A stretch of DNA of 64,000 bases from a virus. This document shows, piece by piece, positions 1-41,000 of this stretch. The stretch is taken from positions 76,395-140,394 of IMG/VR virus record IMGVR_UViG_3300036715_000153, one strand, 5' to 3'. The notes beneath the pieces are model-generated. The model had not been told where the DNA came from and did not search any database. It saw nothing but the letters and a program-made list of their open reading frames with translations. Every line of letters begins with the position of its first letter. Position 1 is the first letter of the stretch. The position numbers and the translations under genes are program-made.

Positions 1-1419
1 ACCACGAACTTCTGTTTCTGGTTCGTCTCTCGCCATCGCAATAGATAGTATCTGTGGTAACATATCGTGTGCTAGTCTATCTTTATATGCAGCTAATACT
101 GCCGCTCTCGCATCGCTGTTGTTGAGCGATTTAAAATATTCTTGAGTTGTAGCCCAAGCAAATAACACGATCGTCATAACCATATCGTCGTGTGCATTAT
201 CGTCTGCCTCGTACGAAGATCCTTTACTAATAAACGTAGAGAACTCTGAAATCGTCGCTTCGTCGTTTATAATAAGCAAGTCTGACTCGATAATCTGTTT
301 TGCATTCGAACAACCGATGCGCTTCGTACGCTTGTCTGTCCTCAATCCGTTCTGCTGTTGCATTGATGCACCAGACATTAACTGTTGTCCGTGTTTAGTA
401 GATTGCCCTACCCACGCAACGTTCTCGTAACCAAACTCATATACTAGCGTATCTGCGACTTGTTTACCCGTAGACTGAATCTCAATCAATACAAATGCTG
501 TGTTATATTTAGTTGCAGTTTGATATATGAAGTCCGGGAATACCATAGGATTCATTCTATTATTCTTATACGTTGCGACCTGATTATACGGTTTAGCCGT
601 AATGTCTATTACGCTGAATGCAGACGAATCCCCACCCACACCTTCAGAGCAGTCGACTGTCATCATGTATTGGTGACCTTCAATCGGGGATTGGTATATT
701 TTTAAATTGTTATGAATTAGTTCTGGATTAGCGTGTACTAGCTTGCGTAGTGTTTGTGAGTTTAATAGCGTACCAGATGAACCGATAAACTCTGCACCAA
801 ACTCTTGGTCGAACGTTTCTTGACCAATGTTAGAAATCGTATCTGCTTTCCATTTCTCATCTCTACCCGGTACGTCCCACCAGTTGATAGAGTTGGCTAC
901 GAACAGCGAACGTTTTGACTCCGCGTCTACCCACAGCTTATAGAAATGATTCAGACCTTTGGGTGTAGACACCAAGATAACCTTAGTTTCTTGACCAGAT
1001 GAAATAGTGGGATATACTGAGTCCCAGAACTCTGCCCACTGAGTGCCCATGATAAAAGCTACCTCGTCTACAAACAGCAGACTGATGGACGTATTGTGTG
1101 AAACTATTCCGTTGGCATAATATTTATTATCTTTAACCACGAATGCAGGATCGTACATCTTCTTACTACAGTTTATAATAGTTTTACTCGATACTTTACT
1201 TATACCCGATTCTGTCACTAACGCTGCACCATTGCGAATAGATGATGCCTTTTTCCATCCTCGATCAGTCATTAACGGGTGGTTGGGAGTTACTTCTATA
1301 GAATTACCATTGATTGTCTCGAATTTAATAGTTTCGTCTGTGTCATATACAGCGACACCCGAAAAATCGGACCACCCGTCTGGTGTAAGTATTTCCCAAT
1401 CGGTGTTATTTAGAAACAC
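1..1419 (-). CDS. gp17: Terminase large subunit, C-terminal half: split-intein IntC (109 aa, 1419-1093) fused to the TerL C-extein; runs off the window edge
   Basis: Translated by hand from GTG 1419: (M)FLNNTDWEILTPDGWSDFSG...TPNHPL...MYDP...YYANGIVSHN|TSISLLFVDEVAF...YPTISSG...LVSTPKGLNHFY. Intein blocks B, F and G are followed by the TerL Walker B and motif III. Absent from the ORF track because there is no stop in the window. Confidence 0.93.
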   Translation of the reverse strand, partial: MFLNNTDWEILTPDGWSDFSGVAVYDTDETIKFETINGNSIEVTPNHPLMTDRGWKKASSIRNGAALVTESGISKVSSKTIINCSKKMYDPAFVVKDNKYYANGIVSHNTSISLLFVDEVAFIMGTQWAEFWDSVYPTISSGQETKVILVSTPKGLNHFYKLWVDAESKRSLFVANSINWWDVPGRDEKWKADTISNIGQETFDQEFGAEFIGSSGTLLNSQTLRKLVHANPELIHNNLKIYQSPIEGHQYMMTVDCSEGVGGDSSAFSVIDITAKPYNQVATYKNNRMNPMVFPDFIYQTATKYNTAFVLIEIQSTGKQVADTLVYEFGYENVAWVGQSTKHGQQLMSGASMQQQNGLRTDKRTKRIGCSNAKQIIESDLLIINDEATISEFSTFISKGSSYEADDNAHDDMVMTIVLFAWATTQEYFKSLNNSDARAAVLAAYKDRLAHDMLPQILSIAMARDEPETEVRG

Positions 1420-1532
1420 GAATCCGCCCGAGCTGGTAAGAAGTTAACTAACAAGTCGTGACGGTCATGCATCACTTCCCCGTGATTTACATCGATCGAC
1501 AGCTTAGTTATGTAAAATGATTGAGTCATCAT
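1410..1532 (-). CDS. 40-aa hypothetical ORF between the split terminase halves
   Basis: AAGGAG Shine-Dalgarno then ATGATG; MMTQSFYITKLSIDVNHGEVMHDRHDLLVNFLPARADSCF*. Its stop lies just past the GTG start of IntC. Confidence 0.45.
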   Translation of the reverse strand: MMTQSFYITKLSIDVNHGEVMHDRHDLLVNFLPARADSCF

Positions 1533-1594
1533 TGAAATCTCCTTTATCTTTGGTGCATAAAACGTAACAGTCTTTAGCTGTTACGATGTAGCAC

Positions 1595-1741
1595 CTATCC
1601 CTGATTTAAAATATACTGTTTTACTGTCTCCGTTGATGCTTGTCCAGTCGATGCTACAAAATATCCATTAGACCAAAAAGTTCTTTCTTTCCAAAAATAT
1701 TTAGAAAGATCAAAATGTTTCCAAATTTCAATAGTTGTTTT
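1595..1741 (-). pseudogene. tnpA: Truncated IS200-type Y1 transposase (C-terminal ~48 aa only)
   Basis: KTTIEIWKHFDLSKYFWKERTFWSNGYFVASTGQASTETVKQYILNQG* matches the TnpA C-terminus FWSxGYF...YIxNQ. The N-terminal HUH region and a start codon are missing. Confidence 0.85.
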
Positions 1742-2899
1742 CCATAATATATTATTTAGTGAAATATATTTTCAATTTATAGTGAAATATTAAAAATGAT
1801 AACTAAATAGTAGTATGGAATTCAAAGCATACAAATTCAGAATATACCCAACAAAGGAACAAGAGAAAACTCTTGCTAAGTTCTTTGGTGCCAAACGATG
1901 GATTTTTAATCATTATCTTCACGAAAATAAACAACGCTTTCAGAATAAAGAAAAGCACCTTTCTAATTTCGATATTAACTATGATATTACAACTCTTAAA
2001 ACATTAGAAGAAACTTCTTGGTTAAAAGAAATTGATTCTATATTACTACAGAACGCCAGTGAAGATTTACACACTGCATATTCGAATTTCTTTAATTCTA
2101 TAACTGGTAAACGTAAAGGTCCTTCTATTTCGATCCCTAAGTATAAGTCGAAATATGATAAACAATCATATCGTACTCGCGGTGTAAAGGTGAACTTCGA
2201 CGATAATATAATAACTTTACCAAAAATTAAGAAAGTCAAGGCAGCTATTCATCGTAAATTCACTGGTAATATTAAATCATCGACAGTTTCAAAAACTGCA
2301 TCTGGTCAGTATTATATTTCAATACTCGTTGAGGAAGATATTAAACTACTTCCTGCATCTGGTATCGAAATTGGTATTGATCTTGGTATCAAAGACTTGT
2401 GTATTTTGTCTAATGGTATCAAGTTTCAATCTCCTAGAATATTACTAGCAAAAGCCACGCTAGAATTAAAGAAGCAACAACGTAAACTAAGTAGAAAGCA
2501 AAAGAATTCTAAAAATAGAGCCAAGCAGAAAATTAAGGTAGCTAAAGCATATCAACGAATAACAAATATTCGTAATGCTTACTATCACGAAATTTCTAAT
2601 TATCTCGTTACGAATTTCGATGCAATATACATGGAAAGTCTCAATGTAAAAGGAATGCTAAAGAATCGTAAATTAAGTAGATCAATTCAAGAGTCTAGTT
2701 GGTCGACATTAGTTAATATGATTCAATATAAAGCAGGATTTTACGGTAAAACTTTTCATCAAATTGGTAGATTTGTTCCTTCGACAAAAACATGTTCGTG
2801 CTGTAATCATAAATTAGATTCGATTTCTCTTTCTACTAGAGAATGGTCTTGTCCGGTGTGCAATACACTTCACGACAGAGACCTGAATGCAGCATCGAA

Positions 2900-4166
<1,267 letters not shown>

Positions 4167-37457: not shown

Positions 37458-37473
37458 CCTATTTGTATGCGTG

Positions 37474-37501
37474 AAAAAGCCCAACTTAATGGGCTTTTTT
37501 T
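37474..37501. terminator. Bidirectional terminator
   Basis: AAAAAGCCCA-ACTTAA-TGGGCTTTTT, directly after the ATPase stop. Confidence 0.85.
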
Positions 37502-37502
37502 A

Positions 37503-38573
37503 CTAAGCTACGTAGTTCTTTACCATTGTTTGCCAGCCTTCTTGTCCTTCATAAGCTGCACACACCTTTAATGCGTTAACTAGCGTTCTCATGTTAATGC
37601 GGTTTTGCTTACCGCCAGACTCTTGAATAAATTCAAATACTTCTTGTCTGAGCTTATTGCTAAGTTGTAGATTCTCAGGTAACTCGATCTTATTAACGAG
37701 CGAACGCATTACTTCTAGCATCTCGTCTTTCGTAGGATTAATCTCCATAACAAATCCACGAGTACGAATAGCACCATCTGGGTCTAACTTCTTAATACTT
37801 ACGTTTGCTACGAGAATAATCCCGCCTTCGAAGTTAAAGTATCTTGGTAACTGCTCTCCGCCTTCTTCCGGCTCTTCTTGGAAAGCTGGATCGTAATAGT
37901 TACCGCCCTTCTTGTTAAAGCTGATCTTACGAGTCTTACCGGAATCGGTTGCTGCCTTAATCATGTTACGAACTTCTGGGTCATTCATCAGAGTGTCACA
38001 CTCATCAAACAGTATAATCTCTTTGCGGTGGTTGAATAACGTTTCGTATGTTGCTGCGGCAGATCCAGCACCGACTGTCTTAAAGTATCCATCACCATCA
38101 GATAGTCCCGCTGCTCTCATCTCAGACTCTAGGTTATGAGTATTGTGATGTAATACTCCTGCTGCGTCGTAGTAAACATGTTCGTTGCTATCTACAGAAA
38201 TATCATACAGGTCTACAATTTCATCAGAAACAGCAACTTCGGCGACAACCTCTGTAGAATCTTTACCAAGAACTACGTTACCAAACACTAGATTGGATGC
38301 TTTAACTGTGTCGTTTGATTCAGTCACAAACATATGACTGCAACCACAATTCACTACCTTACCGGAGTCGAACGTAACAGTGCAGAGTTTATCTTGTTTG
38401 CGAATAAATCCAGATATTGGTTTGTATCCGGTTGGGGTATTTGTTTCTAGTCCAAGAGATTCTATATTATATAGATAATCCAGTTGGGGTTCGGTAATGT
38501 TATACAGGTCGAGTACCTGTAATTTAATGTCGTTTAAGTTCATAAGCCTCTTCTTTAGCTGTCTGTTGTTCAA
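37503..38573 (-). CDS. Split-intein IntC fused to the AAA+ ATPase C-terminal part (likely start ATG 38543)
   Basis: TPTGYKPI, block B CGCSHMF, DLYDISV, YY..AGVLHHN|THNL..., Walker B IILFDECD, sensor ILVAN, AIRTR. Confidence 0.9.
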   Translation of the reverse strand: MNNRQLKKRLMNLNDIKLQVLDLYNITEPQLDYLYNIESLGLETNTPTGYKPISGFIRKQDKLCTVTFDSGKVVNCGCSHMFVTESNDTVKASNLVFGNVVLGKDSTEVVAEVAVSDEIVDLYDISVDSNEHVYYDAAGVLHHNTHNLESEMRAAGLSDGDGYFKTVGAGSAAATYETLFNHRKEIILFDECDTLMNDPEVRNMIKAATDSGKTRKISFNKKGGNYYDPAFQEEPEEGGEQLPRYFNFEGGIILVANVSIKKLDPDGAIRTRGFVMEINPTKDEMLEVMRSLVNKIELPENLQLSNKLRQEVFEFIQESGGKQNRINMRTLVNALKVCAAYEGQEGWQTMVKNYVA

Positions 38574-38605
38574 TGTATCTTGGCGAGAAATCCCACGTAT
38601 ATCTT

Positions 38606-39496
38606 TTAATTAGATGTGCGTATATCTAATTCGGTGTCTTGGCGTAAACACTTACCTGTTCCGCCGGGGCCCGTAAGCATTAATAGATTAGTTGCACCAG
38701 ACTTAATCAGTCTTACAAATCCACGTAGATGTTGTAGTTGATCTGCGTACGCAACCTTCTCTGCTTCATCTTCTAGATCGTTCGTAGAACCAGGTGTGAT
38801 GTCTTGTTCTTTAGCCATAGACTTAGATACGCGAACTGTTGCACCGCCTGCTGCTTCCAGTGCCTTAGCGTAGTCAATCTTAGACGGGCTGCCGATGAAC
38901 ACTGGGGATTTACCAGACGTATCAAATACAGATGGGTTAGTTTCTACGATTACTTGGAACAGTTTAAACTCTGGACGTCCAAGTGCTAACTTAACTTCTC
39001 GATAACCGATCTTATCTCCAACATTCATCTTAGCTACGTATGCGCGAATGTTGTCTGCGATCATCGAAGACATTTCATTCAATACTTCTGCTTCGGTTAA
39101 CTCAGACTCGTTTACATCGACTGGAACGAAGTCGAACTCTGCTACGCGAGGAGTTTTAAGGATGTCGACGATCTGTGGCAGGATCTTAACGATAGATACG
39201 CTGTGGTCGAATGTAACATCGAACTTAGTATCTTTGTTCTTCCATATAGTAATCGAATCTAGTACATCTTGATTTAATGATTTACCCAGCCAGTTAAACC
39301 GGACACACGAGTCCGTCTTATAAAAGAAACGCACACCTGTAAACGTTTTGCCTGCAACCATAAACGTTTCGTATCCAGGCATACGATGGAAAGTCTGACC
39401 GACTCTTTTAGTTAAATACTTCTGGATTAGTAATGCGACGACGTGAACGTCTTTAGCGTTCACTGCCTCTACTAGGTAGTCACTGTATGATTTCAT
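38606..39496 (-). CDS. AAA+ ATPase N-terminal part with a capsid-targeting-like N-terminus and a 14-aa IntN
   Basis: MKSYSDYLVE...; ends LMLTGPGGTGK|CLRQDTELDIRTSN* (Cys1 at 38650). Confidence 0.88.
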   Translation of the reverse strand: MKSYSDYLVEAVNAKDVHVVALLIQKYLTKRVGQTFHRMPGYETFMVAGKTFTGVRFFYKTDSCVRFNWLGKSLNQDVLDSITIWKNKDTKFDVTFDHSVSIVKILPQIVDILKTPRVAEFDFVPVDVNESELTEAEVLNEMSSMIADNIRAYVAKMNVGDKIGYREVKLALGRPEFKLFQVIVETNPSVFDTSGKSPVFIGSPSKIDYAKALEAAGGATVRVSKSMAKEQDITPGSTNDLEDEAEKVAYADQLQHLRGFVRLIKSGATNLLMLTGPGGTGKCLRQDTELDIRTSN

Positions 39497-39518: not shown

Positions 39519-41000
39519 TTATAATTTAGTGTAATTTGAAAAAGACATTAAGCTAGACTCATTCATTTTTGTTTTAGCAAGATCCCAAATATGTTTAGCT
39601 TGCGCATCAGTGGTCTTACTTGGAAGATATTTAGCAAATGACGTGTAATCTCCATCACTAACAAACTTACGAATCTTAGTACCAGAAATCCCAGAAACAT
39701 CATCGTCAGAGTCAGGATCACGCTCGCCTGCAGACACCACCTTAAAGCCATTAAGATTAATAGAAGTTTTTGGATTACCATTGTTCAAATATACCTTTAT
39801 CTTTGATTCGAATTCCGATACTCTATCTGACCCGACTACGAGAGTAACATCTGTATAACCCTCATCTGCTAATTTCATAAGTGCAGTGAACACAGTCGTA
39901 GGTGTGTCTTGTTTAGTATATATTACATCACCAAATAAACTAGAAAGGAACTTCGCCTTGTCATCAAACGACAGGGGATTCTTTTTCTTATCGTGCGACT
40001 TACTTAGAAAAACGATTGGAGTGGCGTGTTCTGTCTTTGCAATAGATATAACCTTGTCGATAAGTAACTCATGTCCAGTAGTTGGGATGTTTAGTCTACC
40101 GAACGTTATTACTGCTTTCTTTAATGCTACGCCTTCAGTCAGATGTTTAACGATATCTGCGATAGCACGATTCTTTTCATCGCCCTTGGGGGTATTTACT
40201 TCCCCAGACTTCACACTCACCATAGAAGTAAATACCCCAGCCATACGAGTCTTAGCACGCTGAGTCTTAATCTTAGACTTTACATCTTTGAGAAGATCGT
40301 CGAATGATTGATCTAGGTTATACTTATACAACAATGTTTCTACGTCTTTAAAGTTCTTTGACTTCCATAGAATCTCTCGATCCTTTTGTTTAAACGTACC
40401 AGGCTCGTATGTAACTTTTCTAAGTTGGAGTTCTTGTCCAGAGAGATTGAATTCCCACTCTTGATCTTTGTCCAGCTTAGTCGGAATTTTGATACCCAGA
40501 GAGGCGAACAATGTTTTGACGGGAGTCTCGACAGTAGCAACTTTAACTAATCCGAGCACGATACCTTGTACTTCTGCAGGAAGATCGAGGAACCTACCCT
40601 TAAAGTGTGCCTCTTCTTTATCTAGCGCACACATGTTATCTATCTGAGCCGAGTAACCTAACTTCTTATCGTGATAGCGAATAGTGACCAACTCACCCGT
40701 ATTACCGGTACGCTTACCGGCATGTTTATCTGATGTAAAGGGCTCGATGACAGAATCTGGCATTGCCTCGAAGAACTTAACTAGGGCTAGTTTAAGTGCC
40801 TTCTTGTCGGAGTATCCATCGAAGTGTACGATGATGTCGATGTCGCCGAACGAATCTTTATCTGGATTAGAGTTATACGAACCGGATGGCTTGAACGATA
40901 CAAATCCGGGAAACTTCGATATAATCTTTTCGTAAGACGCAAGGAACTGTTTGAAATGTTCTCTCGATTTTACTCTGTCTGCCCCAGTAGAACCCGACAT
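39519..41000 (-). CDS. Pol-beta-superfamily nucleotidyltransferase fused to an HxGH-type (cytidylyltransferase/NMNAT-like) domain
   Basis: N-domain SGS...GDIDI...QIDNM; C-domain ITFGRLN.PT.GH, K.NPL, VVGSDRV.EF, SAGERDPD, ISGTK.R. Confidence 0.8.
   Translation of the reverse strand: MSGSTGADRVKSREHFKQFLASYEKIISKFPGFVSFKPSGSYNSNPDKDSFGDIDIIVHFDGYSDKKALKLALVKFFEAMPDSVIEPFTSDKHAGKRTGNTGELVTIRYHDKKLGYSAQIDNMCALDKEEAHFKGRFLDLPAEVQGIVLGLVKVATVETPVKTLFASLGIKIPTKLDKDQEWEFNLSGQELQLRKVTYEPGTFKQKDREILWKSKNFKDVETLLYKYNLDQSFDDLLKDVKSKIKTQRAKTRMAGVFTSMVSVKSGEVNTPKGDEKNRAIADIVKHLTEGVALKKAVITFGRLNIPTTGHELLIDKVISIAKTEHATPIVFLSKSHDKKKNPLSFDDKAKFLSSLFGDVIYTKQDTPTTVFTALMKLADEGYTDVTLVVGSDRVSEFESKIKVYLNNGNPKTSINLNGFKVVSAGERDPDSDDDVSGISGTKIRKFVSDGDYTSFAKYLPSKTTDAQAKHIWDLAKTKMNESSLMSFSNYTKL

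What the first reader, a model, noticed from the sequence alone, without database searches (positions are those of the whole stretch)
37503..39496. AAA+ ATPase split inside Walker A by an intein with a 14-residue N-fragment
Seen: ORF1 ends GPGGTGK|CLRQDTELDIRTSN*. ORF2 begins with about 134-144 aa of intein (block B His, LYDISV, HHN) followed by T. Splicing would rebuild GPGGTGKT and join it to Walker B FDECD. The halves are only 32-62 nt apart, in different frames, with no endonuclease between them. Known (from memory): the shortest natural IntN pieces described are about 15-16 aa (PolB16, VidaL). Inference: possibly one of the shortest natural IntN, in an unusual host protein and with Thr+1; attractive for protein semisynthesis.
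Basis: partly seen in the sequence, partly recalled or inferred. Interest (0 to 1): 0.85.

Follow-up and report, generated by a model that had tools for sequence, protein, structure and literature searches.

The report
Phage ATPase with ultra-short split intein
A phage P-loop ATPase gene is really broken in two inside its ATP-binding loop by a naturally split intein whose first piece is only 14 residues, one of the shortest known, but it belongs to an already described kind (atypically split inteins of phage "fractured genes").

Summary
On the minus strand, ORF1 (38606-39496) ends with the first seven Walker A residues, then a 14-residue intein start and a stop. ORF2 starts with a 134-residue intein remainder (probable ATG at 38543) ending His-Asn, followed by Thr.

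Intein-less homologues of 493-498 aa read straight across the predicted splice junction. The split is not a sequencing error:
- At least 11 independent metagenomic relatives have the same two-gene layout.
- Their N-pieces are 13-33 residues long.
- The catalytic residues are invariant.

[quoted passage not shown] Some show it decaying or deleted, and five have a contiguous mini-intein. The window is therefore the endonuclease-less end stage of a "fractured gene" (Dassa 2009).

The split falls after strand beta-2, the S1 site, as in VidaL (16 aa) and PolB16 (15 aa, called record-short in 2023-2026 papers). The closest solved structure to a relative's model is VidaL.

This is a new member of a known kind, 1-2 residues shorter than the published record, in a new host protein. 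Splicing activity is inferred, not shown. The scan had also noted a second atypically split intein, in the terminase gene of the same genome.

The parts
38651..39496 (-). N-extein of the P-loop ATPase (282 aa). It ends with the first seven Walker A residues, GPGGTGK (38651-38671).
   Evidence: It aligns with the N-parts of intein-less homologues P0002 and P0004 and with the N-extein ORFs of six split relatives.
38609..38650 (-). IntN: 14 codons, with Cys1 at 38648-38650. It covers intein strands beta-1 and beta-2 plus the turn.
   Evidence: It matches the family pattern [C/S]-x4-T-x-[LIV]-x-[IV], with an invariant Thr (A2). It maps to residues 1-14 of the contiguous relative L010, whose model has strands at intein residues 7-12 and 15-20.
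38606..38608 (-). TAA stop that ends ORF1. A second TAA in the ORF2 frame overlaps it 2 nt upstream.
38544..38605 (-). 62-nt spacer with no ORF, promoter or terminator. It holds the Shine-Dalgarno-like AAGAGG (38547-38552). It also holds partial direct repeats of IntN-coding DNA: 38575-38585 repeats 38634-38644, and 38596-38604 repeats 38619-38627.
   Evidence: repeats: joint p about 0.004 by shuffling. RNA folding is no better than shuffles.
38142..38543 (-). IntC: 134 aa from ATG 38543 to the terminal Asn. It carries the block B His, the block F Asp and the block G His-Asn.
   Evidence: Pfam Intein_splicing gives a weak hit. PDB sequence hits are CatC, gp41-1 and VidaL. H70, D114, H133 and N134 are invariant in 18 family members. 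The AlphaFold model has pLDDT 92.1: a HINT fold that begins at helix alpha-1.
37506..38141 (-). C-extein (212 aa). It starts with Thr+1 (38139-38141), which completes Walker A as GK-T. Walker B IILFDECD lies at 37995-38018. The stop is at 37503-37505.
   Evidence: It hits phrog_1250 at E=3e-20 and is 77% identical to intein-less P0003.
37473..37501 (-). G+C hairpin followed by a T-run just after ORF2: a probable terminator of the ORF1-ORF2 transcript.
   Evidence: Read directly from the sequence. The consensus scan did not list it.

Best explanation
This is a naturally and atypically split class-1 intein, cut at the S1 site after strand beta-2. It sits in the Walker A loop of a phage P-loop ATPase of the phrog_1250 family.

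Proposed mechanism:
1. ORF1 and ORF2 are co-transcribed and translated separately.
2. The 14-residue IntN tail of ORF1 inserts as the missing N-terminal strands into the nearly complete HINT domain at the start of ORF2.
3. Cys1 attacks the Lys(-1) peptide bond.
4. The acyl group passes to Thr+1.
5. Asn134 cyclises.
6. A 494-aa ATPase with an intact GPGGTGKT loop is released.

In evolutionary terms the locus is a 'fractured gene' whose free-standing homing endonuclease gene has been lost (stage III of the Dassa 2009 model).

Shown here: the anatomy, the junction restoration, conservation of the split and of the catalytic residues, the fold, and the endonuclease series in relatives. Inferred: actual trans-splicing, its rate, and which start codon IntC uses.
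For: 1. Junction. Intein-less homologues read exactly across the predicted splice site, and the lengths add up: 494 aa against 493-498 aa.

2. The split is conserved.
- 17 proteins of 343-370 aa (P0007-P0023, about 40% identical) have the same IntC plus C-extein build. More appear.
- In 11 independent loci with DNA, the upstream ORF ends with Walker A residues, then a 13-33 residue IntN and a stop.

3. Selection on splicing. The following are invariant across the family: the block A Thr, the block B His, the block F Asp, the terminal His-Asn and Thr+1.

4. Fold.
- The contiguous relative L010 models as a HINT domain (pLDDT 92.5). Its best PDB match is VidaL, itself S1-split (6vgv, E=1.7e-9, TM 0.72/0.79).
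- The window's IntC alone models at pLDDT 92.1.
- IntN plus IntC is 148 aa, the same as contiguous alleles at 148-151 aa.

5. Origin.
- Relatives carry a Vsr-like (DUF559, above the Pfam cut-off) or phrog_681 endonuclease ORF exactly between IntN and IntC.
- L013 holds that ORF in pieces.
- L009 lacks 1.23 kb that its sister L011 has, yet keeps the last ~70 nt of the endonuclease ORF.

6. Expression signals. There is an AAGAGG before ATG 38543. No terminator or promoter lies between the ORFs, and a hairpin terminator follows ORF2.
Against: - No experiment and no docking model supports splicing.
- With the ATG start, the window's IntC has almost no strand beta-3: the helix starts at residue 3. 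Most relatives keep 4-7 residues there.
- The Shine-Dalgarno spacing is short, at 3 nt.
- The block B Thr is absent, though this is true of the whole family.
- No relative closer than about 40% in the intein carries the window's own 14-residue IntN, so selection on this particular IntN is not shown.
- The only near relative found is a 166-nt contig that does not reach IntN.
Confidence: 0.85

Rival explanations
1. The split locus is a decaying remnant. The halves are made but no longer splice, or splice too poorly to matter, and the ATPase is being lost in this phage.
For: The endonuclease is gone, so homing no longer maintains the element. The beta-3 strand is nearly absent and the Shine-Dalgarno spacing is poor. 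The spacer carries odd partial repeats that suggest past rearrangement.
Against: Both ORFs are intact over 296 and 346 codons. Every catalytic residue that is invariant in the family is kept. The exteins are 74-77% identical to an intein-less homologue. The ATPase family is widespread in T4-like phages: 987 phage records and 71 intein-less metagenomic loci. Other endonuclease-less split alleles exist on long contigs, such as L009 at 92 kb.
Confidence: 0.08
2. Sequencing or assembly error: the real gene encodes a contiguous mini-intein, and a one-base indel created the two ORFs.
For: Depth is only about 5. Contiguous alleles of this intein exist in relatives (L010, P0125, P0126, P0130, P0133). 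A single inserted base placed exactly at 38606-38609 would join the frames.
Against: - An independent re-assembly gives the same sequence.
- The fused reading would add about 22 unrelated residues between beta-2 and beta-3, where contiguous alleles have about 4.
- The position of the stop matches the split point of 11 independent relatives.
- The spacer has its own ribosome-binding site and ATG.
Confidence: 0.03
3. Recoding: a ribosomal frameshift or a hop between the two GATATACG copies, 23 nt apart, makes a single precursor that splices in cis.
For: An exact 9-nt repeat sits in the respective reading frames of ORF1 and ORF2, so both read Asp-Ile-Arg. A weak 8-bp A/U hairpin spans the stop. 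T4-type phages are known for translational bypassing in gene 60 (own knowledge).
Against: There is no slippery heptamer. The stop is four codons after the would-be take-off site. RNA folding is no better than shuffles (z = -0.74). Relatives have an endonuclease gene or unrelated spacers at this place. The 96%-identical contig from another study appears to have a 7-nt deletion in the spacer that would break the hopped frame, although this rests on only 9 letters.
Confidence: 0.02

Closest known systems
VidaL split intein (PDB 6vgv; natural, S1-split, IntN 16 aa)
   Same: It has the same split position, after strand beta-2. It is a Cys1 class-1 intein from an environmental T4-like phage metagenome. 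It is the best structural match to the family model and a weak sequence match to the window's IntC (E=0.0085). It also shares the Cys four residues before the block B His.
   Different: Sequence identity is only about 21%. The window's IntN is 2 residues shorter, it uses Thr+1, and the host protein differs. VidaL's activity is measured; this one's is not.
PolB16 OarG split intein (PDB 8cpo; natural, S1-split, IntN 15 aa; 'record-short', PMC10189870 and PMC13014065)
   Same: It is a natural S1 split with a very short IntN of metagenomic origin.
   Different: PolB16 is cysteine-less (Ser1) and sits in a PolB polymerase. It is structurally more distant (rank 23). The window's IntN is one residue shorter and starts with Cys.
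AceL-TerL / GOS-TerL / Cat consensus inteins (natural S2-split, IntN 25-37 aa)
   Same: CatC is the best PDB sequence match to the window's IntC (6dsl_B, E=3e-6). They belong to the same phage-metagenome intein clade. The same genome also carries a TerL intein of this type.
   Different: They are split after helix alpha-1 (S2), not after beta-2, so their IntN is longer. The host is terminase.
'Fractured genes' of Dassa et al. 2009 (PMC2677866)
   Same: The two gene halves stay in one locus and orientation, each carrying a split-intein half. Relatives of the window carry the free-standing Vsr-like or GIY-YIG-like endonuclease gene between the halves. Loss of that gene is stage III of their model.
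   Different: The window itself has no endonuclease gene.

Membership tests
Class-1 intein (HINT splicing domain) | Cys or Ser as the first residue, directly after the N-extein | tested here: met
   Cys at 38648-38650 follows Lys of GPGGTGK. Relatives have Cys or Ser in that column.
Class-1 intein (HINT splicing domain) | Block B His, block F Asp, terminal His-Asn, and a Cys/Ser/Thr at +1 | tested here: met
   H70, D114, H133, N134 and T135 are invariant in 18 sequences. The block B Thr is not conserved in this family.
Class-1 intein (HINT splicing domain) | HINT horseshoe fold | tested here: met
   AlphaFold models have pLDDT 92.5 (contiguous relative) and 92.1 (window IntC). The top 50 Foldseek PDB matches are inteins or intein-like domains, led by VidaL.
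Class-1 intein (HINT splicing domain) | Removing the element restores a conserved host sequence | tested here: met
   The junction equals that of intein-less P0003, P0002 and P0004.
Class-1 intein (HINT splicing domain) | Protein splicing activity | not testable with these tools
Naturally split intein, atypical S1 type | The two intein parts lie on separate ORFs, each with its own stop or start | tested here: met
   TAA at 38606-38608; a 62-nt spacer; AAGAGG plus ATG 38543. The same build is seen in 11 independent relatives.
Naturally split intein, atypical S1 type | The split point lies right after strand beta-2, giving an IntN of about 15 residues | tested here: met
   IntN residues 1-14 map to L010 intein residues 1-14. 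The model has strands at 7-12 and 15-20 and a helix at 21-32. The S1 definition is taken from PMC13014065.
Fractured gene (Dassa 2009) | Both halves in the original locus and orientation, each with a split-intein half | tested here: met
Fractured gene (Dassa 2009) | Free-standing homing endonuclease gene between the halves | tested here: not met
   The window has no ORF in the 62-nt spacer, and no detectable endonuclease relic. The feature is met in relatives L002-L008 and L011. The window fits the 'endonuclease lost' stage.
AAA+ ATPase (host protein) | Walker A and Walker B motifs | tested here: met
   GPGGTGK+T after splicing, and IILFDECD.
AAA+ ATPase (host protein) | Significant match to an AAA/AAA+ profile (sensor motifs, lid domain) | tested here: inconclusive
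   The AAA and AAA_16 hits of intein-less homologues are all below the Pfam cut-offs. The window's C-extein has no Pfam hit and matches only phrog_1250, of unknown function.

The most novel reading that the evidence does not exclude
The 14-residue IntN (and the 13-residue ones of relatives L007, L009 and L011) is fully sufficient for efficient trans-splicing. That would make this family the shortest natural split-intein N-fragments known. The family would also offer natural Cys1 and Ser1 versions, and a second atypically split intein (TerL) is co-resident in the same phage and presumably orthogonal. A far less likely but more exotic reading is that the in-frame GATATACG repeats mark a translational hop across the stop (about 2%).
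Probability: 0.55. Interest if true: 0.6.

Novelty: new member of a known kind. Interest (0 to 1): 0.5.

Why it matters
Short natural IntN fragments are sought for protein semisynthesis, because the peptide can be made chemically. Papers of 2023-2026 residues the record and explicitly ask for shorter ones.

This locus and its relatives offer 13-15-residue candidates with natural sequence diversity. They include Cys1 and Ser1 versions with Thr+1, and two insertion points in one P-loop.

The family also shows, within one host gene, every stage of the proposed gene-breaking cycle:
- empty site
- contiguous mini-intein
- endonuclease inserted at the S1 site
- endonuclease decaying
- endonuclease lost

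That series gives a concrete origin for 'atypical' split sites.

Tried and rejected
- **Near relatives.** Megablast and tblastn of ORF1 against the phage collection found nothing. Scans of viral contigs with either ORF found nothing. A scan of metagenome contigs with ORF2 alone found nothing. Only the profile scan worked.
- **Endonuclease relic in the window's spacer.** The frame-2 peptide of the spacer scores no better than shuffles against eight endonuclease C-termini. Rejected for the window, although relics are clear in L009 and L013.
- **RNA structure in the spacer.** z = -0.74; no support.
- **Promoter or terminator between the ORFs.** None found on the minus strand.
- **Run X2 (another sediment study).**
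  - It holds a 166-nt contig matching 38406-38562 at 96%.
  - Its 9 loose letters suggest a 7-nt deletion upstream of ATG 38543 and an upstream ATG that stops after 3 codons.
  - That would favour the ATG start, but it is too short and too shallow (depth 2.7) to count as evidence.
- **Are the two inteins at the GK|T site (window and L002) sisters?** The tree does not join them, but both sit on long branches. Unresolved.
- **Raw-read check of 38574-38608.** Only contigs of the probable source run were available.

Full report
**1. What is there**

Both genes lie on the minus strand.

- ORF1 (38606-39496, 296 aa) runs through a 282-residue N-terminal region. It ends with GPGGTGK, then the 14 residues CLRQDTELDIRTSN, then TAA.
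- After 62 nt comes an ATG (38543), preceded by AAGAGG. A TTG lies 30 nt further upstream (38573) with no ribosome-binding site.
- From the ATG, ORF2 encodes 134 residues with the intein block B His, the block F motif and a terminal His-His-Asn.
- Thr follows, then 211 more residues that include the Walker B stretch IILFDECD (37995-38018).
- The two ORFs are in different frames. Stops lie in all three frames around the junction, and nothing is encoded between them.
- No promoter-like or terminator-like site separates them on the minus strand. A hairpin with a T-run follows ORF2 (37473-37501).

**2. It is an intein insertion, not chance**

- A search with ORF1 found intein-less homologues of 493 and 498 aa. 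It also found a 326-aa fragment, P0003, that is 74-77% identical to the window's exteins.
- P0003 reads GPGGTGKTWNLESEM without interruption. The window's predicted ligation product reads GPGGTGK+THNLESEM.
- The exteins sum to 494 aa, in line with the intein-less homologues.
- The IntC part matches known inteins. Pfam Intein_splicing gives a weak, sub-threshold hit. PDB chains that match by sequence are CatC (E=3e-6), gp41-1 (E=2.7e-4) and VidaL (E=8.5e-3).

**3. The split is real and conserved**

- A search with ORF2 returned 17 proteins of 343-370 aa with the same IntC plus C-extein build, at about 40% identity and 94-99% coverage. The exhaustive search added more.
- I fetched the DNA around 11 independent examples. 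In each, the upstream ORF ends with the Walker A glycines (or with GK), then an IntN and a stop.
- IntN lengths:
  - 13 residues: L007, L009 (L016 is its duplicate), L011
  - 14 residues: the window
  - 15 residues: L005, L008
  - 26-33 residues: L013, L002, L004, L006, L003
- In the loci that keep an endonuclease ORF, the longer tails overlap its start. They are probably by-products.
- The IntN alignment shows the pattern [C/S]-x4-T-x-[LIV]-x-[IV] with an invariant Thr.
- In IntC, the block B His, the block F Asp, the terminal His-Asn and Thr+1 are invariant in all 18 sequences.
- This rules out a sequencing artefact as the general explanation and argues for selection on splicing.
- For the window itself, an independent Logan assembly of the probable source run is identical over 38300-38889. 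That is the same sample at low depth, so it is only modest support.

**4. Where the split lies**

- L010 carries a contiguous allele: one 666-codon open frame with a 151-residue mini-intein. Four more contiguous alleles, with 148-151-residue inteins, appeared in the exhaustive search.
- The window's 14 + 134 = 148 residues match that length.
- The AlphaFold model of the L010 intein (pLDDT 92.5) has strands at intein residues 7-12 and 15-20 and a helix at 21-32.
- The window's IntN corresponds to residues 1-14, so the cut falls in the turn after beta-2. By the nomenclature quoted in PMC13014065, this is the S1 site, shared with VidaL and PolB16.
- Foldseek ranks VidaL first (E=1.7e-9, TM 0.72/0.79).
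- The window's IntC alone models confidently (pLDDT 92.1) as a HINT domain that starts at helix alpha-1.
- With the ATG start, strand beta-3 is almost absent. That is the main structural oddity of this member.

**5. Why it is split: a lost homing endonuclease**

- In L002-L008 and L011, a 351-448-codon ORF lies exactly between IntN and IntC. It often overlaps both.
- In L003 and L004 this ORF matches DUF559 (Vsr-like) above the Pfam cut-off. In L002 and L006 it matches phrog_681, annotated 'endonuclease'.
- This is the 'fractured gene' arrangement of Dassa et al. 2009. Their model includes later loss of the endonuclease gene.
- Decay is visible in several relatives:
  - L005 has the ORF in two pieces.
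  - L013 keeps about 300 nt of Vsr-like fragments in several frames.
  - L009 lacks 1.23 kb present in its sister L011, but retains the last ~70 nt of the endonuclease ORF.
- The window, with a 62-nt spacer, is the end of this series.
- I could not show an endonuclease relic in the window's own spacer.
- The spacer does hold an 11-mer with one mismatch and an exact 9-mer copied from the IntN codons. The joint probability by shuffling is about 0.004. I cannot explain these repeats.

**6. Context**

- The window is part of a 140-kb viral contig with terminal repeats and T4-like genes.
- The host protein family is widespread. Of 80 metagenomic loci, 71 are intein-less. Tevenvirinae have a 325-aa 'ATP-binding protein' homologue next to a nucleotidyltransferase. 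The window has the same neighbour (39519-41000).
- All Pfam AAA-type hits of the host family are sub-threshold. I therefore call it a P-loop ATPase rather than a proven AAA+ protein.
- P-loops are a common intein site (PMC4760082).
- Related IntC domains at protein N-termini also occur in SF2 helicases, another AAA protein and terminases. Atypically split inteins of this clade are therefore numerous in metagenomes.
- The same genome holds a second one, in TerL.

**7. Verdict**

- This is a new member of a known kind: natural S1-split inteins within the fractured-gene setting.
- It sits in a new host protein. Its IntN is one residue shorter than the published record of 15, and relatives go to 13.
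- Trans-splicing is inferred from conservation and fold, not shown.

Noticed in passing
window 1093-3713: A second atypically split intein lies in the large terminase. The N-half ORF (3069-3713, minus strand) ends AIRG, then Cys plus 37 residues. A TnpB-like ORF (1815-3029, plus strand) lies between the halves. A weak Intein_splicing match sits near window 1213-1338. The scan had already noted this (e1-5896752, e1-5896731).
   Followed up: partly
window 38575-38585 / 38634-38644 and 38596-38604 / 38619-38627: The 62-nt spacer repeats two pieces of the IntN-coding DNA in swapped order. Each repeat is in the frame of its own ORF (reading RQDT and DIR). The joint p by shuffling is about 0.004. 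No explanation so far.
   Followed up: partly
L003:492-1466, L004:388-1326 (IntN) and their IntC genes: Two relatives use Ser1 with Thr+1, so neither splice-junction nucleophile is cysteine, at the same S1 split. Only one natural cysteine-less S1-split intein (PolB16) is described in the papers read here. These relatives still keep an invariant internal Cys four residues before the block B His.
   Followed up: no
window 38139-38650; L002; P0128, P0135, P0137, P0161 versus the other relatives: Homologous inteins occupy two insertion points three residues apart in the same P-loop: GG|TGKT in most, and GK|T in the window and five others. Both have Thr+1. The tree does not group the GK|T inteins.
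   Followed up: partly
L010:1629-3626; P0125, P0126, P0130, P0133: These are contiguous mini-intein alleles (148-151 aa) of the same ATPase. L010 nests inside the clade of split alleles that carry Vsr-like endonucleases. It is therefore either ancestral or re-fused after endonuclease loss.
   Followed up: partly
L009:2421-2512 versus L011:1284-2512; L013:2245-2552; L005:970-2234: These loci capture stages of endonuclease decay between the intein halves: a 1.23-kb deletion that leaves the ORF's last ~70 nt, a ~300-nt fragmented Vsr-like relic, and an ORF broken in two.
   Followed up: yes
window 38406-38562 (run X2): A 96%-identical 166-nt contig from a different sediment study shows that a close relative of this intein gene exists elsewhere. 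All five listed differences change the amino acid, in the variable loop after helix alpha-1.
   Followed up: partly
window 39519-41000 (minus strand): The upstream neighbour is a 493-aa protein with a cytidyltransferase-like C-terminal half (phrog_3041, E=6.5e-52). A nucleotidyltransferase lies two genes upstream of the ATPase homologue in Salmonella phage KM16.
   Followed up: no
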